A DNA stretch of 64,000 bases, from NCBI GenBank assembly GCA_000004985.1, contig GG738848.1; one strand, 5' to 3'. The notes under the pieces were generated by a model. That model was not told the DNA's origin, made no database searches, and saw nothing but the letters and a program-made list of their open reading frames with translations. This document shows, in pieces, positions 8,389 to 40,242 of this stretch (its first letter is position 1; the number at the start of each line of letters is the position of its first letter). This DNA is from Naegleria gruberi. Taxonomy: Eukaryota. Made by a program: the position numbers and the translations under genes.

Positions 8389-9708
8389 ATGCCGAAGAAG
8401 ACTAAAAAAGAAATTAAAGACGAACGATTAAAATCAGCACTTGCTGATGAAGATTCTGATTCCTACGATGAACAAAGTGATGTTTCTACATCAACCATGG
8501 CTCGTCATGCCACAATGGAACAACTTGCAACAGAATTATCGGAAGGAATTGAAAACCTCACAGAAAAGGCTGCTGCTAAACGTTTGGAAGGCTTGACTAC
8601 TATTTGCAAAATTATGAAATTACGTTATATTATTGAAATTCTAGGTGGACAATTAGAATCTTTAATTAATGGTGCTATTCAATGTTGTGCTAAATCTACA
8701 TCAGCAGAAGAAACAATTTTAGCTTTTAATTTATTTACTCTTATTTCTACAACTATTGGAGGATGTTCATCTGCCAATGACCAAAGAAACTTGTTTGGTT
8801 CCAAGTCTTTGAATACTAGTAAATCAGCCAGTGTAATCCTCACTGAAGATAATAGCTTGAGAATGAAGGAAGTATTAACAAGACATGCTGATGCTGCTAC
8901 AAAGAAAAAGTCCGAAGTTAGATGTGAAGCATTATTCTCCTTGTCAGTATTGGAATTTATGGATTGTTCTCCAGAAGATTTGATTTTGGAAAAGGAAAAT
9001 AACAAGTTGGATGTTTTTAAACAATATTGGAATGACCAAGATGAACAAGTTGCTTCAACAGCTATTGAAGGATGGTCTTTGCTTGCTACAATGATTCCGA
9101 ATAAGTATAAGGTTTCAATTCTTGTTCCATCATCATTGAAACTTTTATCTAGTATTATTGCTTCTGAAACTAAAAGTTCTAGTGAAAAGATTGCTGCAGG
9201 TCAAGCTGTTGCTCTCTTATTTGATGCTATTAATAATATGGAAGATAGTTCAATTGCTCAAGTAGAATATGATAATTTGGTGACAGCCATGAATAAGGTT
9301 GCTTCCATCTCTACTAAATCTGTCTCAAAGAAGGAAAGAGCAACACAAAGAATGAATTTCCGTAACTTTGTTAATACTGTTGAAGATGGTGATTGTCCAG
9401 TTGAAGAAATGAACGTTTCTGGTAATGTTCTCTTGTTTGAAAATTGGGATCGTTTGGTTCAACTTGTCAATTTTAAGAGAGTATTGGAAGGAGGAATTTT
9501 GGAACATTTCAAATTTAATTCAAATCTACAACTTGCATTTGGAGTTGATGGCATGGATCTCAGTGTTGAAAAACAAGCTTCCAAGCTCGATTCCATGCAA
9601 AAGAAATTCTATCTTTCAAAGAATTCTGACTTTAACAAGAATGATACCCTTGAAAAGAATAAGCTCACTAGGCAATTTTCAAATTATGTACAAACTGAAG
9701 AAGATTAA
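8389..9708 (+). CDS. Interferon-related developmental regulator (IFRD/Tis7) family protein, 439 aa
   Basis: Several blocks are collinear with IFRD1: AAKRLEGLTTICK against AKTRQAALEGIKN, KIAAGQAVALLFD against RIAAGESLALLFE, and NFRNFVNTVEDGDCPVEE against VFRDVLRAVEERDFPTE. Single exon. Confidence 0.7.
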   Translation: MPKKTKKEIKDERLKSALADEDSDSYDEQSDVSTSTMARHATMEQLATELSEGIENLTEKAAAKRLEGLTTICKIMKLRYIIEILGGQLESLINGAIQCCAKSTSAEETILAFNLFTLISTTIGGCSSANDQRNLFGSKSLNTSKSASVILTEDNSLRMKEVLTRHADAATKKKSEVRCEALFSLSVLEFMDCSPEDLILEKENNKLDVFKQYWNDQDEQVASTAIEGWSLLATMIPNKYKVSILVPSSLKLLSSIIASETKSSSEKIAAGQAVALLFDAINNMEDSSIAQVEYDNLVTAMNKVASISTKSVSKKERATQRMNFRNFVNTVEDGDCPVEEMNVSGNVLLFENWDRLVQLVNFKRVLEGGILEHFKFNSNLQLAFGVDGMDLSVEKQASKLDSMQKKFYLSKNSDFNKNDTLEKNKLTRQFSNYVQTEED

Positions 9709-9821: not shown

Positions 9822-11078
9822 CTATTTATTCAAAATTTTCAAATCAGAAGTGGATTCATTCTCATCAGGTAAATGTTTAGCCAATTCGTGCATGGCTGCA
9901 ACTTCATTAAAAGTCACGGAAGAAAGTGAAGATTCATCAATACTAGCAACACGGTGATTTTCCTTCTCATTTTCAATGGTGGCTGGGATAACTCCTTTCG
10001 ATTCAAGATCTGAATATTTGAATGAACCTCTCTTGAAATGAGTATAATAATAGTATTGACTCAGTATTAAACAATCGAGGAAGATATTAATGGTCGATTC
10101 AGTCAACCAAGGAAGACGACCAAGAAGATAATTTGGTTGAACACTGTAGAGCCAAATAGAGGTCAAATAACACATGTTACCAAATATTCCAATGCTGAAA
10201 TAGGTTGGCGACAAGCCGTCGGTTGACTTTCTGGAGAAATTCCAATAAATTTGAGGCAATCTACTGCCAACATACATGATTGCACAAATACAACCAATTG
10301 TATAGCCAATGATACCTTGAACAGTGTTTGGAGGGAAAACGAAATCTTCCTTTTCTTCCTCTACTTCTTGAATGGTCAAGAGTTTTCTGGAATGTTTGGA
10401 AGGTTGACTAAATGGGCTAGTATTTACATTTTGGAAGGAAATTATTAACAAGGTACCCAGTAAGAGTATAATAAATAATGAAACTACTTTGGATGATTGT
10501 AATTGTGTGGATTTCAATTCAACATCTTCAAAATCATCCATCTGACTCGATGTCACATTTGACAAATTTAAACTCGACGAACTAATTGGTGAAATTTCAA
10601 TGGATTTCTTATCCTCAACTTGTTCTTCCTTCTTCTCAACCTTCCTTCCTCTAATCTTTTGCAACCAAACCACATAGTACAAGTATTGGAAAACCAAAAT
10701 GAAATCCATCGAAACAAAATACGAAGCCAACAAAATTTGAGTAATCAATTGACCACTCAATACACACGCAAGCAAATTACTAGCATCTCCCATCACATTC
10801 TGAGCCAAGAATCCAGCAGATAGTGAACTAGCATCTCTATTCTTGAAATTTGCAATAATTTGTGGAAAGAGAGCACACATCCACAAGGCAATCGAAACTA
10901 AACCCACATAGAAAGAAGCTTGTTCCAAAGGTGAATGAACACACTCTCCAAAGACATTATAAATCCAAGGAACCATCTCATTTCCAAGAGCATCAAAGGC
11001 AGAACACAACTCGCTGCTACTCGTTGCAGTTCCATTATTAAATAATGTCTGATTCGTCGTCATATTATTGAACAACAT
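9822..11078 (-). CDS. PQ-loop repeat (PQLC2/Ypq-like) seven-TM lysosomal/vacuolar cationic amino-acid transporter
   Basis: Two PQ motifs are present (FPQIIANFKNRDASSLS and LPQIYWNFSRKSTDGLS) within a seven-helix hydrophobic profile. The likely start is MLFNNMTTNQ at 11078; the tracked ORF extends further upstream. Confidence 0.75.
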   Translation of the reverse strand: MLFNNMTTNQTLFNNGTATSSSELCSAFDALGNEMVPWIYNVFGECVHSPLEQASFYVGLVSIALWMCALFPQIIANFKNRDASSLSAGFLAQNVMGDASNLLACVLSGQLITQILLASYFVSMDFILVFQYLYYVVWLQKIRGRKVEKKEEQVEDKKSIEISPISSSSLNLSNVTSSQMDDFEDVELKSTQLQSSKVVSLFIILLLGTLLIISFQNVNTSPFSQPSKHSRKLLTIQEVEEEKEDFVFPPNTVQGIIGYTIGCICAIMYVGSRLPQIYWNFSRKSTDGLSPTYFSIGIFGNMCYLTSIWLYSVQPNYLLGRLPWLTESTINIFLDCLILSQYYYYTHFKRGSFKYSDLESKGVIPATIENEKENHRVASIDESSLSSVTFNEVAAMHELAKHLPDENESTSDLKILNK

Positions 11079-12276
11079 TTTACATAAAATTCTATATTGA
11101 GAAACTAATCTAACTAAATGGTACAACAAAATCAATTAAGAAACATGAGGCATGCTACAATTCTATATACTTGTAGTATTATTAGCACATTCAAACTCTG
11201 CACAAAATATGGTGTTGTTTTTTTTTAAGATTTTTTATCTTTGGTGCCAAATTTACTTCTTTAAATAGCTGCAACAATAAGAAGATAAAATTTCGAGTGC
11301 GTACTTTTGAGGTCCACACACGCACCCTCTTAAATTGATTGAATTTAAAGGCGTTCCAACCAACATTAATATAACATTCAAACCCAATACCCCTTAAATG
11401 ATGCACCTGACTATTAATAACCCGACGATATCGGACAAATTTAATCCACAACCAATTAAGTGTGTGTGGAAAGTTAGAGGAGTGGCGAATATGGAGTGGA
11501 AAATTCCCTAGAGTGGCTCCATGGAATGCATTAAGGAAGTGGCGATGAAAAAGACTGGTTTTGGTTGGAAGGAGCTATTCACAGCGAGAATTTGGGTGAA
11601 TTTTCGATAAATTGTAATAGTTTAAAGAAAATATTTTAAAGGAATATTCGAAAAGTGGAAGGTTGATGGGGACTTGGAATGATGCTTGCACAAATGAGAT
11701 GAGGATAAAATTGTGTTAAAATTGTGAGTGAGGTCCACACTTGAGGGAAATTATTGAAAATTCTATTAGAAACTTCAAATTTACCAAAAAATCTCAGCTT
11801 TCTCTGTACAAGATTGTTCAATGTAAATTGATTAGTTTCACATTAATTTAATTTCCATTATTTATTTTCAACATTATTGAGAGTTTCTCTTTCAATTCTC
11901 CCAACAATAAATTATCAAATTCACCAAGAATGTTCACCATCTGAAAATATGTTAGTAAATTTGTATTATTATTAAATAACAATAAAGTTTCCTTAATTTT
12001 TTAATAAAGTATTTTTAATAATTATTTAAAAAAAATGGCGCCACTACTTACCTTAATATTTACGATTTCAATTTCAGAATAATTGATCATCACGATGACG
12101 AACACCACAAATTCCCACTTTACCGTAATCTTTAAATATTACTAATTATTATTCCAAAATTATTACAACTGATTGCTTCCGAAGCCTATTATTTAACGAA
12201 TACGATCAAACTTCACTTCCATTGTGTTATTATTACAGCAAACAGTCGAACAACAAACACAACCAAGAGAAAAAAA

Positions 12277-13263
12277 ATGTCATTACTGTGCACAGATACA
12301 ATTTCGCACTGTTTTAATTTTCTACCAATTGATGACATTGTTTTAAACTGTTCATTGGTTAGCAAACATTGGTTCAAATGTTCGAGGAGCAATAATGTAT
12401 GGAAATATATTTATTGTACCTTGTTTATGGATGATATGTTTGATTGGAGATCTCACACTTCTCGTGGTAAGAAAGACAAGAAATGTGATAAGAAAAAGAA
12501 AAGAAAGTATGATGAATCGTCTGATTCGTATTGGTTTGATTTGTTTCGGAAATACATGATATTTCCAACTGTGAGTGAGCAACAGTTAGAATTATATGAA
12601 TTGGCCATGGGAACAGACATTGCCAAGATTACAGATCCAGAGAAATTACATGAAATTATCTTTTTTATGAGAGGTTTTATGCGTGATTTTGATCATTCAC
12701 TTGTAGACACTTTCGAATACAATTGTTCGAGAGTACATGATGAAGTTAGAGGAAATTATCTAATATTGGCCATCATATTGACAGTCATGTTTGGCAAAAG
12801 AAGGCTGCAATACTTTAGTGATTGGGTGACAATTTCATTGCATCAATACGATTCACAAGACGAGGATGAGGAAGAATTAAGTGACACGTTTAATTGCCCC
12901 CTTCCCACTTTTTGCATGTTAATTCTCTATCCAGAAGCCCAAAATGAAATACCACTCGACGAAAACGATGATGAGAACATTTTGTACAGAGCTGCACCTT
13001 ACTTGGAAAATACAAGTTCCAACGAAAAGGACTGTTGCTTTTTTACAATGGTAGATAATGATGAAGATGGTGATACAGAGGTTATTAGCACAGGTCAGTC
13101 AATTAGTATTTCTAAAAGATATGAAGACGAGCATGGACTTCGTTTCTGTCCAAACTTTTTCAATGCTGGAGCGCGCATTTGTATAGAGAAAATCACAGCT
13201 AGATATTATAATAATAGAGAGTTACTAAGGGTGAATAAATACGATAGCTTCGACTATTGTTGA
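12277..13263 (+). CDS. F-box-like domain protein (328 aa)
   Basis: The N-terminus LLCTDTISHCFNFLPIDDIVLNCSLVSKHWFKCS fits the F-box pattern LP.D....L...VSK.W. The rest is acidic or unknown. Confidence 0.5.
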   Translation: MSLLCTDTISHCFNFLPIDDIVLNCSLVSKHWFKCSRSNNVWKYIYCTLFMDDMFDWRSHTSRGKKDKKCDKKKKRKYDESSDSYWFDLFRKYMIFPTVSEQQLELYELAMGTDIAKITDPEKLHEIIFFMRGFMRDFDHSLVDTFEYNCSRVHDEVRGNYLILAIILTVMFGKRRLQYFSDWVTISLHQYDSQDEDEEELSDTFNCPLPTFCMLILYPEAQNEIPLDENDDENILYRAAPYLENTSSNEKDCCFFTMVDNDEDGDTEVISTGQSISISKRYEDEHGLRFCPNFFNAGARICIEKITARYYNNRELLRVNKYDSFDYC

Positions 13264-14292: not shown

Positions 14293-17200
14293 TTAATTAA
14301 AGGTTGTTTCCAGATTTTGATTATCAGCAGCAATCAAATCAGTTTGCAATTCGTCTGATTCTGCTCCATGTTTCAAAAATTCATCCAGGACATATTGTTG
14401 CTCAGCTTTGGAAATGTTAGATTTAGCATGATGCTTGGCACTCAAAAAGTAGCTTTGGGTTGGTTTTCCTTTAATCTCAATCTTCCTCTCCTCAAATTCA
14501 AAATCCAAATCATACACTCTCTCATAAGTTGATCTTGATAAATGAATCCTTCCAGGTTGAGAATTTGATTCCATTCTGGATCCAACATTAATAGTTTCCT
14601 AGAATGACATGTTTAAATATCAACAATACAGTATTGAAATACTTACACCCCACAAATCATATGCAAATTTCTTGGTGCTATTATTTGTTAATATTTAAAT
14701 TTCTAGAAACACTTACCCAATCACTCCAGCAATTGCAGCTCCAGTATTGATACCCACACGAATATCTACTTGATTAAAGTCAGAACTGGAAAAGGTATTT
14801 GCTTGAACTAATTCTTTCATTTTGGAAAGATTGAATTCTCTAATGACACTAAAAGTTTCAATACTAAATCTGAGTACTCTTTCTGGGTGATCACTAGCTT
14901 GCATCTATTAAATTATTATTAGAATTAAAAGAAGAAATGAATTATATACATACCAATCCTCCAACACAGAAATATCTAAATATTCAAATCCATAGAATTA
15001 ATGTCATAAACTAGAGTCTCGAATTTACTTACGCATCTCCAATAGTTTTAATCTTTTCCAATTCATACTTGTCAGTCAATTTATCGAATCCTGTAACAAT
15101 TGTACTCAACATTTGAACAACATCATTGGCACTAAGTGAGCTAGATAATTTAGTAAATCCAACCATGTCACTGAAAAAGCAAGTGATATCAGGCAACTTG
15201 TCAGCAATTAATTTCTCTCCCTAAAATAGATTAGATATTGATAAATATAAATAAATGTAATACTTACACTTTTCAATTGTCTGGCAACAGATTCTGGTAA
15301 CACGTTTCTCAGTAACTTTTCAGAATTCTTCTTCTCTTCAGCTAATAATGATTTTGACTTGTTTTCAGATGTGATATCTCTTATGAAACAGGTAATGACT
15401 CTGTTATTATCGAATAGAGTGTAGGAAATGCTCACTCTAGCTGGGAAAGTAGTCCCGTTCTTTCTTATACATTCCAAATCTAAAGTTTCTCCCTGAATGG
15501 CATTCTTTTCTGAGGCTAGTGAAGAATCTACTTGAACTCTATTTTCAATCAACTTTTTAATTGTTTCCTCACAATTTGGATTGAAGAGAGACCACAATGG
15601 TTTTCCAATTACATCCTCAGGCAATTTACCAAACATTCTTTGGGCTGCAGGATTGTAAACTTCAATATCATAATCATTACATGATACTGCTCCATCTACA
15701 GCAGAATTAAGAATGGACTTGACCTTTAAATCTTCAACCTCCTTCTTATTGAGACTGTTCGCGCCTCTAGAGGAGGAAAATATCTTGTGGTATAGAACAT
15801 AATTTCTCATTTCATCCTTTGCTTCCAAATGATCAATCTTGATATAGTTCAGCAACATTCTCACAGTTTGAACCTCATTAACATGTTTGTCAAAGGAGAG
15901 GACAAGTAAATAGCCAAACAGTGGAACTAAAAAAAATCCAATAACTCCAAATATTGTTACAATAGTAGAACTGTTATCTCTTTCTATGGAACTAACGTAA
16001 ATATTCATAAATTGTTCGAATTCCTTTGCCAACACTTTACAATCAGTGAAAAGTGCATGGAACTCTGGGAATATACTGTACATGTCCTTGTTCTTAGCAT
16101 TGTGCTTTTCATTGATAATAATTGATTCCAGATAGAGTTCATTCATCTTATCATTCAAGCTTGTACACTTCATGGTAGTCGAATTTGAATTTTCACAGTG
16201 AGCTCCCTTGATGAGATTGTCAACCTCAGAAAATAACCCAATTAGTGGCGCAGCATTGGTTGTAATATCGCCATACAATAGCAAATTCCACTCCTTACTA
16301 ATCTTCTTCTTGATTTCATAAACTGATTCATGATATTCAACAACTTCATCCATTGAAAGTAATTTCTTAGAGTTGATTGAATATGTATCGTACGGAAGAA
16401 CAGAAAATATTAAAACCTCTCCAACTTTCCCTGTAATATCATGAGCATCTACTGAGATTGATGCAGAACGTTCCACATTTCTCATAATTCTCTCAGTTTT
16501 ATCAGAGGTAACAAAAACTTCATAAAAGAACATGGAAAAACACAAACAAGTAGTAATGAAAATAAGAGTTGTAAATAACGATGCTCTAAACTTGGGATTG
16601 TTGGTAAAGTTGGATTTGTATGCTCCCTCTCCATTCTCTGCATATTTCGTAGCCATTTGGTGGTAGATCTTTCCAAGAGCATCTTTAGGAATTGTCTTTT
16701 CAACGAGTTTTAACACGGATTTCAAAGATCTCATTATCAACAAGTTGAATATCAACATTAGACCACAAGATATTACTAGTAATCCCAAAGAGCAGAAATA
16801 AAAGTACATGAAAGCATTATTGGTATTACTGACAGTGGCATAGGATCTATCTACAATGTTTGAGCAAAACTCTTTGAATACTGAACTGAAAATATCTCTA
16901 TTGTGCCAAAAATACATGGCTTTGTAATTGGAGAGAGTATTGTTATACTGCTGAGGTGTATAGGTATTGATTTCCTTTAAAAATTGTATCAAAGTGTTGG
17001 TGATTGCTGAAATGGAAGTGTTAAATTGATGTGCAACAGTGTATTCTCCTGGGTATGGACCAATAACAGGATTATAGAAAAGGACACTACTCTCTGAATA
17101 ATCATGAAACATGTCATCACTCATTAAGTCATTCAGAGCGCTGTTTTGAAGCTCCTGTAATGAAGCTAATACATCTCGAATTCTTTCTTTGTGCTCAGTT

Positions 17201-19668
17201 GAAAAGTTGGCCGCTCCTGCATCAATAAGAGATTGAGGCATCATCTGTACTGCATTGTTATTATATAAAGTGAATAGTAATTGCTCCATTCTTATGTCTA
17301 ATTGCATACTCAATGTGGTAATAGAAGGCATACAGGATATTTTGATTAATTTCACATCACTTGTTGAGTTTACCAATAAGGCGATGGAGAAGGAAAAACC
17401 AATAATAAACAATAAGAAAAACAGAGCTATAGAGGATATAATGCAAGAGTAGGTAAACTTATTGTCAGAAGGAGTGGCAAGAGCTGATCTGTACAACATT
17501 TCCTTTTTCAATTGTGGATCTTCTGCAGCTTCCAATCCCATTTTGTCACCAAAATCTTCCTCAACAAATTCTTTTGAATAACCATTTTCCAATCCGTCAA
17601 TCTTTGGTTTTGTAGAGTTTTTTTCCATATTTTTGATTTTAGAAGAGAGTGAGGCTGCACTCTTGGAAATTGATGATCTACTGTCTATTGAAGATCTTGA
17701 ATCATCGTGTGTGGCCCTCTCTTTCAAAGGTACTACCTTATTTCGCATGGAACCTTTTACACCACCAACTGGAGCTTTTGAAATTCGTATCTCTCCTTTT
17801 ACAGTTTCTTCATTCTCAATATCATTGGCTTCCTGATACAATTCTCCTGCTCTCAAATTGTTAAAAAGAATGTTATCAAGGAATTTGCCATACATTCTTA
17901 GAACATTCTTGTCATTACTGAAATCTTTCATCAGATTTTCAAAGGTATTCTCAGTATTAAAGGTCAATTCTGTGATTTTTCTGTTAATTTCCATAACCTT
18001 ACCGTAATTGATTTCCATATTGAAAAATTCCTTCCAAATAGCTTTGTGAAGAGCTAGAATGGAATTGTATTGCTTTTCCAGCTTGGCAAGGATGTGTTTC
18101 ACGTCAACAATACTCATTCCATGTGAAGAATCACTGTTTCTTGATTTGTGGAGTGAAGTTTCAATTTCTTTCAATCTTTCTCTCAAAGTTATTCCTGAGA
18201 AGAAATTCAATTTTTGTTGTTTAACTCTTCTCAATAATCCCAAAGCATATTCATGTGAACCTTCTTCCCAAATGTAAGAAGCTATCAAAGCTGATGAAAT
18301 AATCAATTCTGGTTCTGCAAATGATTTGTGTTGAGCAACTGATTTGATGAATGAAACCGCCAATTGTCTATCACTAATATTATATGCATTTGGCGATGCC
18401 TTCTTACCAGAAAACATTGCAAACTTTAAAAATAGTCCAAGTCTATTCAGTCTCTTTTGCTCCACAAAAGATTTGAAGAGAGAATGACCTCCCCGCTCAA
18501 AATATGTCAATACTGACATTCCAGACCTATCATCAATAGATTTTTCATAACAATCATTCAATAGCATCAACATTTCCTTTCTGATTGAATAATAGAAAAA
18601 CCGTGTGTATGCCTCCATCAAAACAAATCCCCCTAGAAAGCCAATAATCATCAGACCTACTGGAATGAAAGTAAAACCAAGTCCCATATCCCATGAATCA
18701 TTTGAATTTAAAAGAAATGCAATCATTGACCCTATTGGTGAAAGTACCTTTGCAAACAAAACTCCACTCCAAATTGAATTTTCCATTCTCACAAAATAAG
18801 GCAAAAAGTAAAACAAGCAGGGAGCTATGGTTATGGATAACACAATATGAAGCACTGATCTTCCATACATGTACTGATTTGGAATTACATAATTCAATAA
18901 AATTTGCAATTGACTAATTGATAAAAACATGGAAAAGAAGAATGGTGATTCCATTATAAATGGTGATGTGTTTTTCAAATGAGTATTTCCTAATATTTGT
19001 CCATAAATAATAGTATTAACAATAGAAATCAAGATACCAATAATTCCAATAACCATCAAAACAATAGAAGCAACTGATTGGCACATTACAGATGGAGCTC
19101 TCATCAATACATTCTGAGGGTCATCATAATTCTCAAATGACATTTGTGTGGTATAGTCACAATCGAGAAAGGATGTCATTGCAAAAGTACCAATCAAACA
19201 CACAAAGAATTGAATATTTCCATAGTAAAATATACAATTTCTCAATAGTTTCATATTTCTACTTGCAATTTCAACAGATTTAGCTGTCAAGACAAAAATC
19301 ACAAGTCCCAAAATTGAAAAGCAAACAAACAAAACCTCAAAAGCAATTAACCCCTCATAAGGAACCTTATCAATTGACAAGGTTATCAAATAATTAAAAA
19401 CTCTCCAAATCCAATCGCCATATTCTCCCCAATGAAATGAACCCAACATTCCAATTCCCAACGAGGCCAAAATTACATAAACATTCAAGACAACAAAATA
19501 AATGTAATTCTTCATTCCCTTCCGAGGAGTTTTATCTTCAATTGAGACAATCATTGAGAAGATACTCTCCTTCAATTTTATAAGACTCTCCCTTCTTGAA
19601 GTATAACTCGATGAAGAGGAGGTAACTGAGGTATTGGCAGAAGAGCCCATATAGTTACTTTCAGCCAT
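14293..19668 (-). CDS. Polytopic membrane PAS-domain class III adenylyl cyclase, paralogue A (~1740 aa). Exons on the complement: 19668..15268, 15220..15033, 14975..14954, 14904..14717, 14677..14647, 14598..14293
   Basis: Exon 1 is 4.4 kb and has an N-terminal block of about 10 TM helices plus further TM segments. The PAS domain reads VDGAVSCNDYDIEVYNPAAQRMF...RKNGTTFPARVSISYTLF. The cyclase domain is split over five small exons with GTAAGT/GTATGT donors and 47-57-nt introns. It contains FFSDMVGFT, EKIKTIGDA|YFCVGGL, GINTGAAIAGVIG, KKFAYDLWG and ETINVGSRMES. Lys before TIGD and Asp in YDLWG are the adenylyl-cyclase specificity pair. Both metal-binding Asp residues and the Asn/Arg transition-state pair are present. 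Confidence 0.85.
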
Positions 19669-20295: not shown

Positions 20296-21492
20296 ATGAT
20301 TTCCAACTCCAATAATTCCAGTCATTGCACAATTAACTTTACAAAAACTGGTAAAACTTTTGAAATGCCAAAACTGAATGTTCCCCTAGTTGCCGATCAG
20401 AATGATCCAACGAAAATGTATTGTCAATCATTCACCGTTGATTCAGATGATCAACAAGTATTGCAATTCTTCAATACCTATGGTTTTGTCGTTTTCGAAA
20501 ATGTACTAAACCAAGAAGAAACTCAAGCCACAGTGAATGATATCTTCAAAATTCTATCAGATGGTACTGAAGGAAAATTTAATCCAGAAGATACCTCAAC
20601 TTGGAATTGTTGGCCACAAAATGCTTTGGAACATTTTGGAAATGTTTCAATTCCAAGTATATTCTCTCGACAATTCTTTATGAATCGACAAAATGAAAAT
20701 GTTGTACGAGCATTTTCAAAGGTATTCCAATTACCAATGACTGAATTGATCGTTAGTCATGACCGTGCCTCATTCTACAGACCTCCAACCATTAATCCAA
20801 AATGGAAGACCAAATCAAATGTTCACTTGGATTTGAATCCAGCTGAAGCTCTCGATGAACCTGAGAATGCCACAGTTTCCTATAATGAATTGAATAGGTT
20901 ACACTATTCATCTGGTAAAGGTCACTGGATCACTGAGAATAATCATGTATGTTCAAAGAGAGATGGTCTGCAAATTCAAGCCCTCATCAATTTGAATGAT
21001 AATCTGAAAGAAGATGGTGGTTTCGTTTGTGTACCTGGATTCCACAATCATTTCAGAGAATTTTTCGAGAATTCCAATCTTGTAAATGAGCTCGGTAGAG
21101 GCAAACCAAGTTTCAGCTTCCAAAAGAATGATCCAGTCAGTGGCAATATCCACCAACTGGCCCAGAGAGTCCCTTCAAAGGCTGGTAGTATTATTATATG
21201 GAATCAATTACTGCCACACGGAAGTACCTTCATGGAGAGCACAACTACTGCCAGATTCAGATCGGCCATGTATCTGAGAATGTTCCCAAAGAGTATGCTC
21301 CTTCGTAGTGGTGCCTCAAAGAGAAGATTGAACAGAAGAGAAGGACTCAGAAAGAAGATTCACAACCTCTACATTAAGGAAAGAGTTCCATTAGAATTGA
21401 CTGATTTGGGTAGAATTGTTTTTGATATTGAAGATGACAATAGTGAATCTGTTTTTGATCCAATTCCTCCATTTGCCAATCATTTGAAATAA
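20296..21492 (+). CDS. Phytanoyl-CoA dioxygenase (PhyH)-like 2OG/Fe(II) oxygenase family protein
   Basis: N-terminal FNTYGFVVFENVLNQEE resembles the PhyH N-terminus. An HxD is present (NVHLDLNP) with a distal His (WNQLLPHGS). Single exon, 398 aa. Confidence 0.55.
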   Translation: MISNSNNSSHCTINFTKTGKTFEMPKLNVPLVADQNDPTKMYCQSFTVDSDDQQVLQFFNTYGFVVFENVLNQEETQATVNDIFKILSDGTEGKFNPEDTSTWNCWPQNALEHFGNVSIPSIFSRQFFMNRQNENVVRAFSKVFQLPMTELIVSHDRASFYRPPTINPKWKTKSNVHLDLNPAEALDEPENATVSYNELNRLHYSSGKGHWITENNHVCSKRDGLQIQALINLNDNLKEDGGFVCVPGFHNHFREFFENSNLVNELGRGKPSFSFQKNDPVSGNIHQLAQRVPSKAGSIIIWNQLLPHGSTFMESTTTARFRSAMYLRMFPKSMLLRSGASKRRLNRREGLRKKIHNLYIKERVPLELTDLGRIVFDIEDDNSESVFDPIPPFANHLK

Positions 21493-21664: not shown

Positions 21665-22876
21665 TTAGAAGAGCAACATCTTTTCTGGATCTTCGATCAA
21701 TTCCTTAACTCTCTTCAAGAAAGTAACAGCTTCTCTACCATCGATAATTCTGTGGTCATAAGTCAAGGCAACGTACATCATTGGTCTGACAACAACTTGA
21801 TCACCAATAGCAATTGGTCTATTCTTTGTGGCGTGCATTCCCAAAATAGCAGATTGTGGAGGATTGATAATTGGTGTACCCATCAAACTTCCGAAAACTC
21901 CACCATTAGAAATAGTGAAAGTACCACCTTGCATATCATCAAGGGAGATGGCATTCTTTCTGGCCTTTTCACCCAAGTTAGAAATGTCTCTTTCAATTTG
22001 TGCAATTGACTTGCTTTCACAGTTTCTGACAACTGGAACGACCAAACCATTTGGAGTGGCAACAGCAACACTAATATCGACATAATCACGATAAACAACT
22101 TCATTACCATCAATGACACCATTGACAGCTGGAACTTCAGTAAGAGCAATAGAAGCAGCCTTACAGAAAGCACCCATGAAACCCAACTTTAAACCATCGT
22201 GACGTTCTTGGAAATCGTCTTGGTTAACCTTTCTCAATTCCATAATCTTCTTCATGTCAATTTCATTGAAAGTGGTCAACATAGCATAGGTGTTTTGGGC
22301 TTGCTTCAAACGTTCAGCAATCTTAGCACGAATACGTGTCATTTTAACTCTTCTTTCAGTTCTAGCGAGTCCATTGGCAGAAGTAGTTGGAGCTGATGAT
22401 TGTGTTGGTTTAGCTTCTTCCTTCTTTGGGGTTGGTGTTGGTGTGGCAGTAGGAGTTGGAGTAGAAGGAGTGGAAGCAGTTGTTGTTGTTGTTGTAGTAG
22501 TAGAAGGAGTGGAAGCAGCAGCAGCAGGTGTAGCAGTTGGCTTACCATCAGTATCAATGATGGCAATATCCTTACCAACTTCAACGGTATCCTTGGCATT
22601 AGCCAAAATAGCCTTCAAAACACCAGCTTCTGGAGCACGGATTTCCACAGAGACCTTATCAGTATCAATAGTACAAATGACTTCATCTTCAACACAAGCT
22701 TGACCTGGTTTTTTCACCCATTCATTGATTTCACCTGATGAGATGGAATCACCCATTGATGGAACCTTTATCATAACATCCTTCAAGAGAGAAGGAGTAG
22801 AGTGAAGGAAACGTTGTTGGGAAATGAATTTCTTGCTGGCCAAGATGCGTGATGATTGAACGATAGATCTTCTCAT
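21665..22876 (-). CDS. Dihydrolipoamide succinyltransferase (E2 of the 2-oxoglutarate dehydrogenase complex), mitochondrial
   Basis: Arg-rich mitochondrial presequence. Lipoyl domain with [19 protein letters not shown], carrying the lipoyl Lys. Thr/Pro/Ala-rich linker. Catalytic domain with the [13 protein letters not shown] active-site motif. Confidence 0.9.
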
Positions 22877-25610: not shown

Positions 25611-26002
25611 TTATAATAGTAATTTCGGATTAGTTTTTATAATATAGTATTCAACAATTTCATTTCAATTTTCTGTATATACAACCTCATTGTATAACAC
25701 AACATTACCCATTGTGTGGGGAGCATATCGAACGATTCGATATCAAGAACTCTTGTGTCAATAAAAAATATTTAATTAATAATGAATTGCTCTCTCTCGC
25801 TCGCTCAAATGCTCAAGAAGTAACATCCTCGCACTTTCTCACTCGAAAATTTCAATTGAATCAAATTATTCTTATTATTGAATTATTCCAAAATATTTGT
25901 TTGAATCAATTTCATAGTATTTGTTTGTTTGGTCAAGACTTTATGTTCTCGCAAAAAGTAGAACTCCATCAATTTACTTCTTTAAAACTTTTGTTAAAAA
26001 AA

Positions 26003-34973: not shown

Positions 34974-37900
34974 CTAGAGTCGTAATGAATCTTCATCATC
35001 GACTCGTTCTGCATTTTCAGAATGTTCTGAGGGTTCTGATTCGAGCATTCCCATTTCCATTCTCATGTTTTTCACGAGCATTGTTTCATCTTCTTCATTG
35101 AGGCGTGCTCTCAAGTGGTACATGTCATTGAGTAGGTAACCAAGCATGGATCCTTTTCCTTTAACTTCAAGCTTTCGTTCCTCAAATTCCATTTGTAAAT
35201 GTTTAACTCTTTCGTAGGTTGATTGTGATACTTGAATTCTTCCCTCCTCTGAATTTGATTCCATTCTTGAAGCAACATTGATGGTATCTCCCCATAGATC
35301 GAATGCAAACTTTTTGAAACCAATTACACCACCAACAACTTGACCAGTATTGATACCAATTCTGATTCATAATTGAAATTAATGAACAGTAATAAGAAAA
35401 CTAATAATTATTAACAAACTACTTACCTAACATTCAATTGTTGAGTAGAAATTGGTTTTGGATCATCTCTGCAAAATATTTGAAGAGCTTCTTTGTATCG
35501 ATTTGTGTTAATGTCTCTCACCACTGAGAAAGTTTCCATAGCAAATTGGAGAACAACTTCTGGGTGAGTCACTCCTCCATCCAATCCACCACAACAAAAG
35601 TAAGAATCACCTATAGTTTTGATCTTTTCTATATTGTACTTTTCAGTCAACTTATCAAATCCGTTCACAACATTTCCAAGTAACAAGACAACGTCTTGAG
35701 GGTTGAGAATAGAAGAAATTTCTGTAAATCCAATCATGTCCGTAAATAAACAAGTAATGTCAGGAAGCTTCTCTGCAATAAATGTTTCTCCCTAGTATTA
35801 TTATTATTATTATTAAATATTGAAAAACTAGTATAACAACTTACATTCATCAATCTTTGGGCAATCTTGGTTGGGAGAATATTTCTCAATAAATTTTCAG
35901 AAGTCTTTTTTTCTTCAGCAAGTGCAATTGCTTGCTTTCTCTCAAGTGTTATATCCTTAATGATAAATAAAAAAAAAACTTTCGAATCAATCATGGCCCA
36001 CGATATATTCACTTTGGCTGGAAAACATGATCCATTCTTCTTCACACAATCCAATTCTAAAGTTTCTCCTCTGATTGTAGTACTGGCTGTTATAGAAGTC
36101 ATGGCTTCAAAGATATTGCCAAGCTTTTCCTGACTTGCCGTATCAAATAAATTGAAAACAGACAAACCAACAACGTCATTGACATTTCTCAAGAATAAAA
36201 GTCTTGCTGCAGGGTTGTAAATCTCAATATCAAAATCACTGTTGCAGTACAACACTCCATCTACTGCAGTGTTGAAAATACTCTTTACCTTATCCTTTTC
36301 TTCTTCTTTTTGTTGTTGACTGCTCTTATTCTTCTTACTCTTATTTATCTGATTGTAGAGAACGAAGTCACGAATTTCATCTTTGGCATCCAAATATTCA
36401 ACTTTAACATAGTTCAACATCATTCTCAAAGTTTGAAATTCATTAAAGTGAGCATCAAGTGATAGGAACAATAAATATGCAGTGAATGGAATTGTTAGTA
36501 AACCAAGAACTCCAAATATAATGCTAACCAGAGACGACGTATTGTTTTGAAGTGCCTCAATATAAATATTCAAAAATATTTCAATATCATCAGTAAGCTG
36601 GCTACAAATTGAGTATATTCCTGTGTAAAATTCACTAAATGTTTTGAGAGGGTCTACTGTAGTTGTTCCAAATACTTGATTAACTATTGACAACTCAACC
36701 AAGAACAAATTCACCATATCATTCAAACTGGAACAGGCTGCATGAGAAGTTGAGGTTCTATTGGAGCAGTTTCCAGTACCGCTTATAATTTCATCAACCT
36801 CAGAAAACATGCCTATGAGTGGTTTTTCACCATTTTCCTTGTCTCCATATATCAGCTTGTTCCACAACACATTCAAATTCAACCCAATCTCACCAATGCC
36901 ATCGTGCAGTTTTACAAGATCTGCATTGGAAAGTAGTGCAGGGTTGTTTGCAGTGGTATTCGGAAGTAACTTGAATGTTATCAATTCCCCAATACTAAAC
37001 ACTCCTTTCTGTGCATAATTTGAAATTTTTACAGACTTGGCAATACTCTTCATAATTAATTCTGATTCTGAAGAAGTGCTGAAAGCCTCCAGGTAAAAAA
37101 TAGATACACAGAGTGCGGATAAAGCTATCAATAATATAGAGAGGAATGTGAAAGTATAGGATGGATTGCTAAGGTAATCAGATATTGAGCTGCCACTGTC
37201 GACTGATTCTTGATTTTTGGTTGTCAATTGTTGGTAGAGTTTGATAATAACATCTTTTGGAATGTTCCTCTCCACCAGTTTGATTGCTTGTTTAAGTGAA
37301 CGCACAACTACGAAAAACATAACAATAGAAAATGCAAACACCATTAACATTGCAATCAGGCAAGATATGTAGAAATATCTAAATATCAATTCCGTTTCAT
37401 AAACAGTGGCATAATTTCTATCAACAATGTGTAAGCAGTATTGTTGGTAATTTTGAAGAATGGTATCTCTATTGAGCCACAAGTACATGAACTTAAAGTT
37501 GGTAACTGTGGCATTAAACTCTTCAAGACCGTACTTTTTGAATTCTCTTGCTATTTGAATTAGAAGATTAGTGTTGAGGGCAATTGAGGAATTAGATACA
37601 TCTACACCAGTAAATTCGTCATTATTAGTATCTAAAATATGTGGAATGTTAAACGTATGGCTGTCTGAAGAATAATCATGGAAAATATCATTAGTAAAGG
37701 AGCCATCAAGAGCCATTTCCTCTAAAACTTTGAGACCGTGAATAACTTTGTCCAATCTTTCCTTGTGAATATGGTTGTAGCTAGTGTAGTTGTAAATTCC
37801 TTTTGCTTCCAAAGATAAAGTACTAAGTTTTGTGTTGCCATCAATAGTTGCCAAGACTTGAAACATTTGCTCTATTCTATTTTCAATCAATAAATATGAA

Positions 37901-40242
37901 ATATCAACACTAGGAAGACAATTAGCAATAATTGTAGGCATATCTTTTGTGGAAGCCACAAGAGCATAATATCCAAATCCAAAACAAGCAACAAATGTTA
38001 AAAAAGAAACTACTACAAATATCAGTACCACTATATACGTTGCCTTGTTATCCCCTGAGGTAGCCAAGGCCATTCTGAACAGACCCTCCTTCCTTACTTC
38101 TGGATCTTCTGAAGCTTCATTAATCAAGTTCAATATTTCAGGAGTCTCTTCCGTCATTTCTTTTGTGGTAGAGTTTTCTGCAGTAAGTTTGTTAGTGCTC
38201 TCCATGACAGACTTTCTAAATGATATGAGTTTTGATGCTGTTGACATGGAAGACAAGGGGCTTTTGGCATTAGAGGGAACAGTTGATGCTGGGCTTTTCA
38301 CTGGTGATGAGATGGTTCCTATTACTTTTCCTTCCTTCCTTTCTTCTTCATCTTCAATCTCATTGGCTTCTTGATACAACTCTTGAGCTCTGATATTGTT
38401 AAATATTACCAGTTCAAGAAATCGTGCATATAATCTTAGAACTGATTTATCGCCACCAAAATCTTTCATCAAATTCTCAAAGGTTATTTCTGACTCAACA
38501 GTTAGTTGGGTAATTCTTCTGTTGATTGTAATAACAGTACCAAAATTGACCATTTCATTGGTCATTTCCTTCCAAAGCGCTTTGTGCCAAGATAGGATTG
38601 TATGGTGTTGTCTTTCCAAGTTGGCTAAAATATGCTTCACATCCACAAAACTAATACCAGAACCTTCACCTGATTTTTTGTGCAGTAAGGTTTCCATTTC
38701 TTTCAATTTTTCTTTCAAAATAAATTCTGTTATAATATTGAGTTTGTGTCTCTTGATTTTCTTCAATAAAGCGAGAGAATATTCATAACAGTTGGTGCCT
38801 TCATTCCAGAAATAAGCGGTTGTCATTGCTGCAGCAACGATATTTTCAGGATAGGAGAAGGAACGATGTTGAGCCACTCCTTTGATGAATGAGATGCAAA
38901 TCTCATTGTCACTTAGACCCAAAGCATCATTTAAAAGTTTCGTCTTTCTACTTGATAATCTAAAGAAAATGTATAATTGTCTAATTCTTTTTTGATCTTC
39001 CAATTCCTTGAAGAAAGAGTAACTTTCTCTTTCAAATAAATGCCTCAATTCTGATATTTGTTCCTCGCTGGCAGTATATTCGACTCCATTTTCCAAAAGT
39101 TTTACCAATGAATTCTCCAAGCAACCAATGAAACCCCTCCTTATGGAATAATATGATACACCAAGATAAATGGTCATTGCTGCAAAACCAATAAAAAATC
39201 CAATTATTGCCAGTCCAATTGATGTACTAATCATTCCTAGTCCAATTTCTAAATCTTGTTTTTGATTAATGAAAGAGGAAATGAGAGGACCTAAACTTGT
39301 ACCAATTTTAGAAAAGACAATACCACTCATAAAACCATTCTCTGATAGAGAATAGTGAGGTATGAGGAAGAAAATAGATGGAACCAAAGTTGTAGAGAGA
39401 ACAATATGAACTATAGCCCTCACAAATACCATATCATTTGGAATAGCATACATGACAATTACTTGCAACTGAGATGTTGCCATAAAGTGAGCAATAAAGA
39501 ATGGACTCTCTGAAATGAATACAGATTTGCTTTTGAGATGGGTATTTGTAATGATGAGATTATACATTGCAGTTACTGGTACCAGTACAACTGCCATAAC
39601 AATACAAGTAACCAAAAGTGCAATATTAGTTGGTGAGTAGCACATTTTGGTTGGAAATCTAGAAAGAGCATACTGATCTATTGTGTATCCTTCAAAGAAC
39701 TTCTTTCCTGACACTCTATCACAATCCACAAATGATGTCAGCAAGTACGGTATTGTAAGATGACCAAAAAAGCAAGCAAAAGCAACAATCTTCAACAAGG
39801 TTCTAAAGGTTTTCATATTCCTACTAGCTGTCATGGCTGCCTTTGCAGTTGTAATAAACAAAACCAAAGCAGCAAGAATAAACACCATACAAACAACTGT
39901 TATTGCAATCATTGCCTCATACGTAATCAAATCTAAGGAAAAAGTAATTGGATAATTCAAAGCTTTTGAAATCCATAATCCATATTCTCCCCATCCATAA
40001 TCACCCATTACTGATATGCTAACGGCTCCATAACATGAATATAATACAACGAGCAAGTTGAGGATGAAATTCTTCCATGATTTCTGAGGTGCTTTGTCAG
40101 TCATGACAATTATTCTATTCAGCAAGGCATCCTTAACTTTGACAATATTCTGTCTCCTCGATAAATAACCTGAAGATGAGGAGGAGCTACTAGAATTATG
40201 AGAAGAACTCTGATAATCGGAGTGATGCCTAAAGTCAATCAT
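34974..40242 (-). CDS. Polytopic membrane PAS-domain class III adenylyl cyclase, paralogue B (~1750 aa). Exons on the complement: 40242..35845, 35791..35427, 35361..34974
   Basis: Same architecture as paralogue A: N-terminal TM block, internal TM segments, a PAS domain (VDGVLYCNSDFDIEIYNPAARLLF...KKNGSCFPAKVNISWAMI), then the cyclase. The cyclase motifs are LFTDMIGFT, EKIKTIGDSYFCCGGL, IGINTGQVVGGVIG, KKFAFDLWG and DTINVASRMES. Introns are 53 and 65 nt with GTAAGT donors. It lacks the two micro-exons of copy A. Confidence 0.85.
35796..35815. repeat. (TTA)6 microsatellite inside intron 1 of cyclase paralogue B
   Basis: tattattattattattatta. Confidence 0.9.

What the first reader, a model, noticed from the sequence alone, without database searches (positions are those of the whole stretch)
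14293..19668. Paralogous pair of giant polytopic membrane PAS-adenylyl cyclases (copy A)
A 4.4-kb exon encodes about 10 N-terminal TM helices, large loop regions, further TM segments and a PAS domain. The class III cyclase domain sits on downstream exons. The Lys in EKIKTIGD and the Asp in YDLWG predict ATP, not GTP, specificity. Both metal-binding Asp residues and the Asn/Arg pair lie in one domain, which implies a homodimeric active enzyme. The sensor input and the membrane module are uncharacterised. A PAS domain sitting between TM segments and the cyclase points to a ligand- or redox-regulated cAMP source.
Basis: partly seen in the sequence, partly recalled or inferred. Interest (0 to 1): 0.7.

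Follow-up and report, generated by a model that had tools for sequence, protein, structure and literature searches.

The report
Naegleria TmcB-like receptor adenylyl cyclase
This is a real six-exon Naegleria gruberi gene for a 1711-residue, 12-helix membrane protein. It joins a TmcB-like membrane module and two outward-facing helical-bundle domains that resemble bacterial sensors to a PAS domain and an ATP-type cyclase, and it belongs to a large, unstudied heterolobosean family of likely receptor-type cAMP sources.

Summary
On the minus strand, 14293-19668 carries one gene: a 4401-nt first exon plus five short exons, separated by GT..AG introns of 39-57 nt. It encodes 1711 aa. A full-length paralog (copy B, 34974-40242, 1716 aa, 41% identical) lies about 15 kb away.

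Pfam finds TPR_TmcB, PAS_9 and a class III cyclase domain. All six catalytic residues (two metal Asp, Lys/Asp for ATP, Asn/Arg) sit in the single domain.

New here:
- The window is Naegleria gruberi.
- The gene belongs to a family of at least 124 clusters at 50% identity. Named members are almost all Heterolobosea, and the domain order is the same throughout.
- The PAS domain is closest to FixL but lacks the heme histidine.
- The PAS-to-cyclase linker length is invariant.

Most likely function: a ligand-gated receptor adenylyl cyclase. No activity, ligand or transcript evidence was available. The gene is unstudied rather than new to the databases, so interest is moderate.

The parts
14293..19668 (-). 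Gene A, whole CDS span (6 exons, 1711 aa)
   Evidence: ORF list and sequence. Splice model gives a 5136-nt in-frame CDS.
15268..19668 (-). Exon 1 (4401 nt, aa 1-1467): membrane module, TPR, ectodomains, PAS, S-helix/CTE
15033..15220 (-). Exon 2 (188 nt): start of the cyclase core, first metal Asp (FFSD), EKIKTIGD
   Evidence: The intron 1 position is shared with copy B.
14954..14975 (-). Exon 3, 22-nt micro-exon (…YFCVGGL)
   Evidence: The residues are colinear with the uninterrupted copy B sequence IGDSYFCCGGL.
14717..14904 (-). Exon 4 (188 nt)
14647..14677 (-). Exon 5, 31-nt micro-exon (TKKFAYDLWG, specificity Asp)
   Evidence: Colinear with copy B FKKFAFDLWG.
14293..14598 (-). Exon 6 (306 nt, including the TAA stop): NVGSRM Asn/Arg, end of the cyclase, C-terminal tail
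18604..19515 (-). N-terminal 8-TM block (aa 52-355). The outward TM3-TM4 loop has a beta hairpin flanked by invariant Cys170 and Cys196.
   Evidence: Hydropathy, AF2 model with pLDDT 83, invariant Cys. No solved structural relative.
17779..18513 (-). Cytosolic helical TPR domain (aa 386-630), with the Pfam TPR_TmcB match at aa 507-622
17461..17778 (-). Ser-rich linker that aligns poorly among paralogs (aa 631-736)
   Evidence: Sequence. The modelled start of this stretch, residues 630-640, has pLDDT below 50. Identity to the family is only 22%.
16711..17460 (-). TM9, ectodomain 1, TM10 (aa 737-986), with the conserved Cys779/Cys935 pair
16585..16710 (-). Short conserved cytosolic loop (aa 987-1028), motif K-L-x-x-K-x-I-P-K-D-x-x-G-K-I-Y-H
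15886..16584 (-). TM11, ectodomain 2, TM12 (aa 1029-1261), with invariant Cys1158/Cys1168 and the juxtamembrane motif LRMxLNY
15361..15723 (-). PAS domain (aa 1316-1436) ending in the DIT motif
   Evidence: Pfam PAS_9. Nearest solved structure is FixL. The heme His is absent.
15268..15360 (-). Signalling helix plus cyclase-transducer element (aa 1437-1467, LLRNVLPESVARQL)
   Evidence: Aligns with the AC8 C2 segment LRNILPSHVARHF. The spacing from DIT to LPxxVA is 32 aa in 51 of 52 matches.
14440..15199 (-). Class III cyclase catalytic domain (aa 1475-1663), spread over exons 2-6 (the span includes introns)
   Evidence: Pfam PF00211, E 2.8e-49. PDB phmmer best hits AC8, AC5, AC9. Catalytic residues.
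34974..40242 (-). Paralog copy B (3 exons: 40242-35845, 35791-35427, 35361-34974; 1716 aa) with the same architecture

Best explanation
Gene A, and its paralog B, encodes a receptor-type class III adenylyl cyclase of a family expanded in Heterolobosea.

Shown by computation:
- It is one 1711-aa polypeptide with a cytosolic N-terminus.
- It has an 8-TM block, a cytosolic TmcB-type TPR domain and a Ser-rich linker.
- Four more TM helices bracket two outward-facing helical ectodomains of about 180 aa each. Each ectodomain has a conserved Cys pair.
- Next come a cytosolic PAS domain ending in DIT, a helical linker of fixed length containing the cyclase-transducer element, and a single catalytic domain.
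- That domain carries both metal Asp, the Lys/Asp (ATP) pair and the Asn/Arg pair.

Inferred:
- The enzyme acts as a homodimer with two symmetric active sites and makes cAMP.
- The two ectodomains bind an extracellular ligand. They are continuous with the TM helices and resemble bacterial NIT and four-helix-bundle sensor domains.
- The conformational change passes through TM12 and the conserved juxtamembrane LRMxLNY segment to the PAS dimer. It then travels along the rigid coiled-coil and CTE to set the relative orientation of the two catalytic domains.
- The 8-TM and TPR module is an accessory or scaffolding input of unknown ligand.
- The many paralogs keep the output but vary the ectodomains, so they may form a repertoire of chemosensors feeding cAMP.
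For: Gene model and paralog.

Domains: Pfam.

Catalytic residues: D, D, K, D, N and R align to mammalian AC8 C1 and C2. Each is conserved in 28-31 of 31 family cyclase domains.

CTE and fixed 32-aa DIT-to-LPxxVA spacing in 51 of 52 matches.

Topology:
- Hydropathy.
- AF2 models with pLDDT 83 and 84, pTM 0.79 and 0.77.
- Conserved Cys pairs confined to the predicted outside loops.
- N-x-S/T sequons somewhat enriched in the loops.

Variable sensor, conserved output: identity to 17 full-length relatives is 23% in the ectodomain segments, 42% in PAS, 64% in the CTE and 61% in the cyclase.

Family: 124 representative clusters. About 35 are full-length with the same order. They come from N. fowleri, N. 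lovaniensis, N. gruberi, Willaertia magna and Acrasis kona.
Against: - No transcript, protein, activity or ligand data were available.
- Model coordinates could not be inspected, so disulfide geometry and bundle packing are unverified.
- The PAS domain could itself be the sensor.
- The 8-TM and TPR module has no solved relative, and the proposed mechanism does not explain its role.
- Sequon enrichment is weak for A's ectodomain 2.
Confidence: 0.62

Rival explanations
1. The cytosolic PAS domain is the primary sensor. It would respond to a small ligand, cofactor, redox state or gas. The membrane part would serve mainly for anchoring, localisation or dimerisation.
For: - PAS_9 and PAS matches are strong.
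- The nearest solved relatives are the heme O2 sensors FixL and EcDOS.
- PAS identity of 42% across paralogs suggests a conserved pocket.
- N. gruberi is known to have an unusually large PAS complement of 50-80 proteins (bioRxiv 10.1101/2023.04.23.537977).
Against: - The FixL proximal His position is I, L, V or M in 45 of 49 family PAS domains. A and B have no His in that helix.
- There is no LOV-type NCRFLQ motif (sequence).
- An anchoring role does not explain two conserved, Cys-stabilised ectodomains that diverge faster than the rest.
Confidence: 0.2
2. The N-terminal 8-TM block is a transporter or channel. The cyclase would report or be controlled by transport or membrane state. This would resemble the K+-channel/cyclase fusions of Paramecium and Plasmodium, or the P4-ATPase/cyclase fusions of alveolates and oomycetes.
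For: - Eight conserved TM helices carry invariant polar or special residues (P290, N297, N321, G329).
- The only hits in the word-indexed search with the full protein were P4-ATPase-cyclase fusions of Phytophthora and Stentor. They matched through the cyclase domain, which shows that such fusions exist in protists.
Against: - No Pfam transporter family matched.
- The block is separated from the cyclase by about 900 residues that include four further TM helices.
Confidence: 0.1
3. The catalytic domain makes cGMP, or both cAMP and cGMP, or is a regulatory pseudo-enzyme, despite its AC-like signature.
For: Specificity prediction from two residues is not infallible. UniRef titles for relatives say 'Guanylate cyclase domain-containing protein', but these are automatic names.
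Against: Lys and Asp occupy the positions of the AC C2 Lys and Asp, not the Glu and Cys of guanylyl cyclases. All six catalytic residues are intact and conserved across the family.
Confidence: 0.05
4. The model is an artefact. The downstream cyclase exons would belong to another gene, or copy A would be a decaying pseudogene with insertions mistaken for introns.
For: There was no transcript evidence. Micro-exons of 22 and 31 nt are unusual.
Against: - All five junctions are GT..AG and keep the frame.
- The spliced product matches the Pfam cyclase model without a gap and is colinear with copy B, which lacks four of these introns.
- The cyclase-transducer element lies on exon 1.
- The same single-chain architecture is annotated in other Naegleria genomes.
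Confidence: 0.03

Closest known systems
Uncharacterised Naegleria, Willaertia and Acrasis proteins such as N. fowleri FDP41_003313 (XP_044562704), N. lovaniensis C9374_003576 and N. gruberi NAEGRDRAFT_81665. They are annotated as 'Adenylate and Guanylate cyclase catalytic domain containing protein' or 'TmcB/TmcC TPR repeats domain-containing protein'.
   Same: They share the same order of 8-TM block, TPR_TmcB, two TM-bracketed ectodomains, PAS and cyclase. Lengths are 1.5-1.8 kaa and identity over the membrane part is 25-35%.
   Different: They are paralogs or distant orthologs, with 35% best identity. None has been studied experimentally, so they add no functional knowledge.
Dictyostelium TmcB/TmcC ('tiny macrocysts') family, Pfam PF25474. 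tmcB is described as a regulator of the cAMP signalling pathway in sexual development (Muramoto et al. 2005, pmid 15817229, as cited in PMC8516963 and PMC12750705).
   Same: The TPR_TmcB domain scores above Pfam's cut-off (53 and 60 bits against 27). A TPR_TmcB protein without a cyclase from a chytrid (P0126) also shares the N-terminal TM block and the later TM spacing.
   Different: The window protein carries a PAS domain and a cyclase at its C-terminus. TmcB-type proteins such as P0126 have no Pfam PAS or cyclase match, although P0126's own C-terminus may be incomplete.
Bacterial transmembrane sensors with periplasmic four-helix-bundle or NIT domains (Tar and Tsr, NarX and NarQ, TorS, PcaY, NasR NIT) and bacterial membrane class III cyclases such as Rv1625c/Cya
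   Different: There are two bundles in one chain, each bracketed by its own TM pair. There is an extra 8-TM and TPR module. There is no HAMP domain. There is no sequence-level membership in any Pfam sensor family. The host is a eukaryote.
Mammalian membrane adenylyl cyclases (AC1-9)
   Same: These are the best-scoring solved relatives of the catalytic domain (AC8 E 3e-57). They share the CTE motif and also have twelve TM helices in total.
   Different: Mammalian enzymes are 6TM-C1-6TM-C2 pseudo-heterodimers with one active site. Here there is a single complete catalytic domain, an 8+4 TM arrangement, large ectodomains, a TPR domain and a PAS domain.
Naegleria gruberi BLUF photoactivated adenylyl cyclases, and protist receptor cyclases such as Dictyostelium ACG and trypanosome ACs (named from my own knowledge)
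   Same: All are protist class III cyclases with a sensor fused upstream of a single catalytic domain.
   Different: The sensor modules differ (BLUF, CHASE-like, periplasmic-binding-protein-like), and those enzymes are soluble or single-pass.

Membership tests
Class III nucleotidyl cyclase (Pfam PF00211) | Catalytic domain profile match above the curated threshold | tested here: met
   167.6 bits against a cut-off of 21.9, covering model positions 5-182 of 183. PDB phmmer to AC8 gave 3e-57.
Class III nucleotidyl cyclase (Pfam PF00211) | Two metal-binding Asp plus the transition-state Asn/Arg pair in the active site | tested here: met
   D (FFSD), D (IGDAY), N and R (NVGSRM) align with the AC8 C1 Asp residues and the C2 Asn/Arg. 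Each is conserved in 28-30 of 31 family members.
Adenylyl (not guanylyl) cyclase specificity | Lys and Asp at the purine-recognition positions (guanylyl cyclases have Glu and Cys, by established knowledge) | tested here: met
   K in EKIKTIGD and D in YDLWG align with the AC8 C2 Lys and Asp. K is present in 30 of 31 and D in 31 of 31 family members.
Adenylyl (not guanylyl) cyclase specificity | Measured cAMP formation from ATP | not testable with these tools
   Needs an enzyme assay.
Class IIIa/b cyclases with a cyclase-transducer element | Conserved helical element of about 19 aa (LLxNxLPxxVAxxL) immediately N-terminal to the catalytic domain | tested here: met
   LLRNVLPESVARQL aligns with the AC8 C2 segment LRNILPSHVARHF. 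There is also a weak HNOBA C-terminal match.
Mammalian-type tmAC (6TM-C1-6TM-C2) | Two complementary catalytic domains in one chain | tested here: not met
   There is one Guanylate_cyc domain carrying all the residues.
PAS domain | PAS profile match above threshold and a C-terminal DIT motif leading into a helix | tested here: met
   PAS_9 scores 66 bits against a cut-off of 27. The DIT motif is followed by a fixed-length linker.
FixL/DOS-type heme PAS sensors | Proximal heme-ligating His on the F-alpha helix | tested here: not met
   FixL is the best solved match (1.7e-7). The His column is I, L, V or M in 45 of 49 family members, including A and B.
TmcB/TmcC family (Pfam PF25474 TPR_TmcB) | TPR_TmcB profile match above the curated threshold | tested here: met
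   A scores 53.0 bits and B 60.0 bits against a cut-off of 27. Relatives also match.
TmcB/TmcC family (Pfam PF25474 TPR_TmcB) | Shared multi-pass membrane module around the TPR, compared with a TPR_TmcB protein that lacks a cyclase | tested here: inconclusive
   The chytrid protein P0126 aligns over aa 152-622 (E 6e-5). Its TM spacing resembles that of TM9-TM11. The ectodomains were not aligned significantly, and Dictyostelium TmcB itself could not be fetched.
TmcB/TmcC family (Pfam PF25474 TPR_TmcB) | Role in macrocyst or cAMP-pathway regulation | not testable with these tools
   Known only from the literature on Dictyostelium.
Four-helix-bundle / NIT-type extracytoplasmic sensor domains | Antiparallel helical bundle whose first and last helices continue into TM helices | tested here: met
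Four-helix-bundle / NIT-type extracytoplasmic sensor domains | Sequence-profile membership (4HB_MCP, NIT, TarH, PilJ and similar) | tested here: not met
   No Pfam match for either loop even at E <= 10.
Four-helix-bundle / NIT-type extracytoplasmic sensor domains | Ligand binding | not testable with these tools
   Needs biochemistry.

The most novel reading that the evidence does not exclude
The heterolobosean fusion may act as a 'Rosetta stone' for the TmcB family. On this reading, TmcB-type membrane modules (8 TM, TPR, and two bacterial-sensor-like ectodomains) are extracellular-signal receptors whose ancestral output is cAMP synthesis. The output is covalent in Naegleria, Willaertia and Acrasis. 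In Dictyostelium, where tmcB loss perturbs cAMP signalling during sexual development, the module would act through a separate cyclase. The dozens of Naegleria paralogs would then form a chemoreceptor repertoire that signals directly through cAMP, independently of GPCRs. This could bear on chemotaxis, amoeba-to-flagellate differentiation or encystment, including in pathogenic N. fowleri.
Probability: 0.3. Interest if true: 0.65.

Novelty: new variant of a known kind. Interest (0 to 1): 0.45.

Why it matters
Naegleria genomes encode roughly 80 or more cyclases (PMC9928731). What they sense is unknown.

This work resolves one large subfamily into a defined receptor architecture:
- predicted outward-facing ectodomains that resemble bacterial sensor domains;
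- a PAS transmitter;
- a rigid linker of fixed length;
- an ATP-specific homodimeric cyclase.

It also ties the family to TmcB proteins, whose only known phenotype in Dictyostelium is altered cAMP signalling. That yields testable hypotheses:
- ligand screens on isolated ectodomains;
- chimeras of these ectodomains with reporter cyclases;
- TmcB-cyclase interaction in Dictyostelium.

If the ectodomains do bind ligands, the paralogs would be a ready source of receptor-cyclase modules. They would also be a handle on environmental sensing in free-living and pathogenic Naegleria.

This is not a new enzyme class. The genes already sit in public genomes as unnamed predicted proteins.

Tried and rejected
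1. The word-indexed homology search with full-length A returned only 7 hits, all through the cyclase domain. The same search with an 11-sequence N-terminal alignment returned nothing. The exhaustive HMMER search was needed to find the family.

2. Organism guesses of dictyostelid and Acrasis kona were rejected. Short introns, BLUF and many cyclases had made Acrasis attractive, but its relative is only 22% identical. The E2 succinyltransferase ORF is 100% identical to the N. gruberi protein.

3. The FixL-like heme hypothesis for the PAS domain was rejected, because the proximal His is absent family-wide. A LOV-type flavin-cysteine motif is not present in the sequence.

5. A Pfam scan of the isolated loops at E <= 10 gave nothing.

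The N. gruberi locus tags of A and B were therefore not obtained. Their own database entries did not appear in any search; the best hit was 35% identical.

7. The Naegleria genome paper (pmid 20211133) is not held. Muramoto 2005 is known only through citations.

8. AF2 coordinates are not exposed. Disulfide distances and packing between the bundles could not be measured.

Full report
OBSERVATION

The minus strand of 14293-19668 carries one long ORF (15208-19668, 1486 aa as listed). Smaller ORF fragments lie downstream. Reading the sequence and locating donor and acceptor sites gives six exons: 19668-15268, 15220-15033, 14975-14954, 14904-14717, 14677-14647 and 14598-14293. All five introns are GT..AG and measure 47, 57, 49, 39 and 48 nt. 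The joined CDS is 5136 nt, stays in frame, and ends at TAA 14295-14293. It encodes 1711 aa.

A second gene, copy B, has the same architecture. Its exons are 40242-35845, 35791-35427 and 35361-34974 on the minus strand, and it encodes 1716 aa. A and B are 41% identical over 1706 aligned positions. tblastn finds no third copy in the window.

Copy B serves as an internal control for A's splicing. It shares only the first intron position (…QLKS|GEK… in A, …RLMN|GET… in B). It carries the residues of A's 22-nt and 31-nt micro-exons (YFCVGGL and TKKFAYDLWG) as uninterrupted sequence.

DOMAINS AND CATALYTIC RESIDUES

Pfam gives three matches for A, with equivalent matches in B:
- Guanylate_cyc, aa 1475-1663, E 2.8e-49, model positions 5-182 of 183.
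- PAS_9, aa 1326-1433, E 4e-18.
- TPR_TmcB (PF25474), aa 507-622, E 4e-14, 53 bits against a cut-off of 27.

Against solved structures, the C-terminal 404 aa match mammalian AC8, AC5 and AC9 best (E 3e-57 to 1e-50). They align to both the C1 and the C2 halves.

In a MAFFT alignment with AC8 C1 and C2 and 31 family cyclase domains, the residues line up as follows:
- The two metal Asp (FFSD, IGDAY) align with the C1 Asp residues.
- The Lys of EKIKTIGD and the Asp of YDLWG align with the C2 purine-recognition Lys and Asp.
- The Asn and Arg of NVGSRM align with the C2 Asn and Arg.

Each of the six positions is conserved in 28-31 of the 31 family members. By established knowledge of class III cyclases, guanylyl cyclases carry Glu and Cys at the two specificity positions. 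A single domain holding all six residues works as a homodimer with two active sites. Activity itself remains untested.

Immediately upstream, LLRNVLPESVARQL aligns with the AC8 C2 segment LRNILPSHVARHF. This is the cyclase-transducer element of class IIIa/b enzymes. It lies on exon 1, which ties exon 1 to the cyclase exons.

SOURCE ORGANISM AND FAMILY

The window is about 33% G+C and eukaryotic. The intronless 403-aa ORF at 21665-22876 is 100% identical, over 92% of its length, to the NCBI N. gruberi dihydrolipoamide succinyltransferase. Identities to N. lovaniensis, N. fowleri and Willaertia are 78%, 75% and 67%. The window is therefore Naegleria gruberi.

An exhaustive HMMER search used aa 1-1199 of A against 1.84 billion representatives clustered at 50% identity. 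It found 124 clusters, 50 of them below 1e-30. Every named member but one is heterolobosean:
- N. fowleri (best hit FDP41_003313, 35% identical, 1808 aa).
- N. lovaniensis, N. gruberi, Willaertia magna and Acrasis kona.
- The exception is a protein from the chytrid Quaeritorhiza.

Source names are only 'hypothetical protein', 'Adenylate and Guanylate cyclase catalytic domain containing protein' or 'TmcB/TmcC TPR repeats domain-containing protein'.

I mapped six pieces of A onto all hits with phmmer. About 35 representatives keep the full order of TM block, TPR, ectodomain 1, (ectodomain 2), PAS and cyclase. Most short hits are fragmentary gene calls from clusters whose NCBI members are full length.

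The chytrid protein P0126 has TPR_TmcB at 80 bits but no Pfam PAS or cyclase match, although the sequence held ends within a hydrophobic stretch and may be cut short. Its TM spacing after the TPR resembles that of A.

I found no paper that mentions Naegleria together with TmcB. The Naegleria pangenome paper only counts 'at least 81 cyclases' (PMC9928731).

MEMBRANE MODULE

Hydropathy shows an N-terminal TM cluster (aa 54-355) and four later TM segments at about 737-770, 952-986, 1029-1054 and 1232-1261.

An AF2 model of aa 1-640 was built with an 11-sequence family alignment (pLDDT 83, pTM 0.79). It shows the following:
- Eight TM helices at 52-72, 104-133, 139-164, 199-225, 243-261, 264-288, 294-320 and 326-379.
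- A beta hairpin at 170-188 in the TM3-TM4 loop, flanked by the invariant Cys170 and Cys196.
- A helical-repeat domain at 386-630.

With the TPR and the PAS-cyclase in the cytosol, the topology is N-in. This places the Cys-flanked hairpin outside, and the distribution of Lys and Arg agrees.

An AF2 model of aa 725-1275 used a 20-sequence alignment (pLDDT 84, pTM 0.77). The TM helices run on as long helices into two helical ectodomains. Each ectodomain has a conserved Cys pair: Cys779/Cys935 at the base of the first, and the invariant Cys1158/Cys1168 in the second. There are also recurrent N-x-S/T sites.

PAS DOMAIN AND LINKER

The nearest solved PAS domains are the heme sensors FixL (1d06, E 1.7e-7) and EcDOS. 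In an alignment of 49 family PAS domains with both FixL sequences, the proximal heme His column is I, L, V or M in 45 of 49. FixL-type heme binding is therefore excluded for the family, and no LOV motif is present.

The PAS domain ends in the DIT motif. The distance from DIT to LPxxVA of the transducer element is exactly 32 residues in 51 of 52 matches. The TM12-to-PAS spacer, in contrast, varies from 36 to 58 residues. A linker of fixed length is what a rigid helical transmission would need.

Identity of A to 17 full-length relatives, by region, is as follows:
- 23% in the two ectodomain segments.
- 29-30% in the 8-TM block and the TPR.
- 42% in PAS.
- 64% in the linker and CTE.
- 61% in the cyclase.

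The sensor side varies and the output side is conserved.

MOST LIKELY MECHANISM

Steps marked as inferred in the structured field are inferred here too. The protein is probably a homodimeric receptor adenylyl cyclase. The two outward-facing bundles bind a ligand. The signal passes through TM12 and the conserved LRMxLNY juxtamembrane segment to the PAS dimer. It then travels along the fixed-length coiled coil and transducer element to the catalytic dimer, which makes cAMP. The role of the 8-TM and TPR module is open.

Rivals are:
- PAS as the primary sensor (0.2).
- The 8-TM block as a transporter or channel coupled to the cyclase (0.1).
- A different nucleotide specificity (0.05).
- An annotation artefact (0.03).

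COMPARISON WITH KNOWN SYSTEMS

The catalytic core is a class IIIa-like adenylyl cyclase. The architecture is not that of mammalian tmACs, which have two complementary half-domains. It is also not that of the characterised protist cyclases (BLUF-PACs, ACG, trypanosome receptor ACs, channel or P4-ATPase fusions).

In logic it most resembles bacterial transmembrane sensors: a 4HB ectodomain, a cytosolic PAS or HAMP domain, a coiled coil and a dimeric output.

Its TPR domain meets Pfam's criterion for the TmcB family. Dictyostelium tmcB is described as a regulator of the cAMP pathway in sexual development (Muramoto et al. 2005, cited in PMC8516963 and PMC12750705). A covalent TmcB-module/cyclase fusion is therefore a suggestive functional link. 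I could not compare directly with Dictyostelium TmcB.

VERDICT

The gene is not new to the databases: it lies in the published N. gruberi genome and has many unnamed relatives. The enzyme class is known.

The defined architecture appears undescribed in the searchable literature. It consists of TmcB-like 8 TM and TPR, two sensor-like ectodomains, a heme-less FixL-like PAS, a fixed linker and an ATP-type homodimeric cyclase, together with its expansion in Heterolobosea. I rate it a new variant of a known kind, with moderate interest (0.45).

Noticed in passing
window 30087-32066 (+): An intronless 659-aa ORF combines an RGS domain (aa 3-118, E 4e-6) with a C-terminal BLUF blue-light flavin sensor (aa 506-601, E 1.9e-23). 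It is a candidate light-regulated regulator of G-protein signalling and lies between the two cyclase paralogs.
   Followed up: no
window 14647-15267 (-), compared with 35362-35844 (-): Copy A packs five introns of 39-57 nt into its last ~930 nt, which creates 22-nt and 31-nt micro-exons. Its first 4401 nt have no intron. Copy B has only two introns in the same region, and only the first position is shared. This points to intron gain or loss since the duplication.
   Followed up: partly
window 21665-22876 (-): The 403-aa ORF for the 2-oxoglutarate dehydrogenase E2 subunit is 100% identical to the NCBI N. gruberi protein. That model is only 369 aa and covers 92% of the ORF. The ORF's extra N-terminus ([28 protein letters not shown]…) looks like a mitochondrial presequence, so the public model may start too late. 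The full 403-aa protein is also called on an ENA metagenome contig.
   Followed up: partly
whole-database searches for proteins A and B: Other N. gruberi proteins are in the libraries, including paralogs of this family. The public gene models of A and B were therefore not seen, and their locus tags are unknown.
   Followed up: partly
window 34244-34855 (-): A 203-aa ORF lies about 120 nt downstream of copy B's stop codon. It has an acidic N-terminus and several hydrophobic, Cys-rich segments, so it is a likely small membrane protein. It was not annotated here.
   Followed up: no
window 41788-45093 (+) and 52850-57976 (-): Two large neighbouring ORFs were seen: a 1101-aa protein with TPR_12, TPR_10 and NPHP3-like repeats, and a 1708-aa DEAD/Helicase_C protein. 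Other neighbours are a P450 (32139-34097, -), a double BTB_2 protein (25712-27544, +), a PhyH-like dioxygenase (20296-21492, +), an F-box protein (12277-13263, +), a PQ-loop protein (9822-11135, -) and an IFRD-like protein (8389-9708, +).
   Followed up: no
protein A aa 987-1028 (window 16585-16710, -) and aa 1262-1275: Two short cytosolic motifs are among the most conserved parts of the membrane half across the family: K-L-x-x-K-x-I-P-K-D-x-x-G-K-I-Y-H after TM10, and L-R-M-M-L-N-Y after TM12. Their function is unknown. The chytrid TmcB-like protein has a similar 'LVPKRAQKAMIANLDEE' stretch at the first position.
   Followed up: partly
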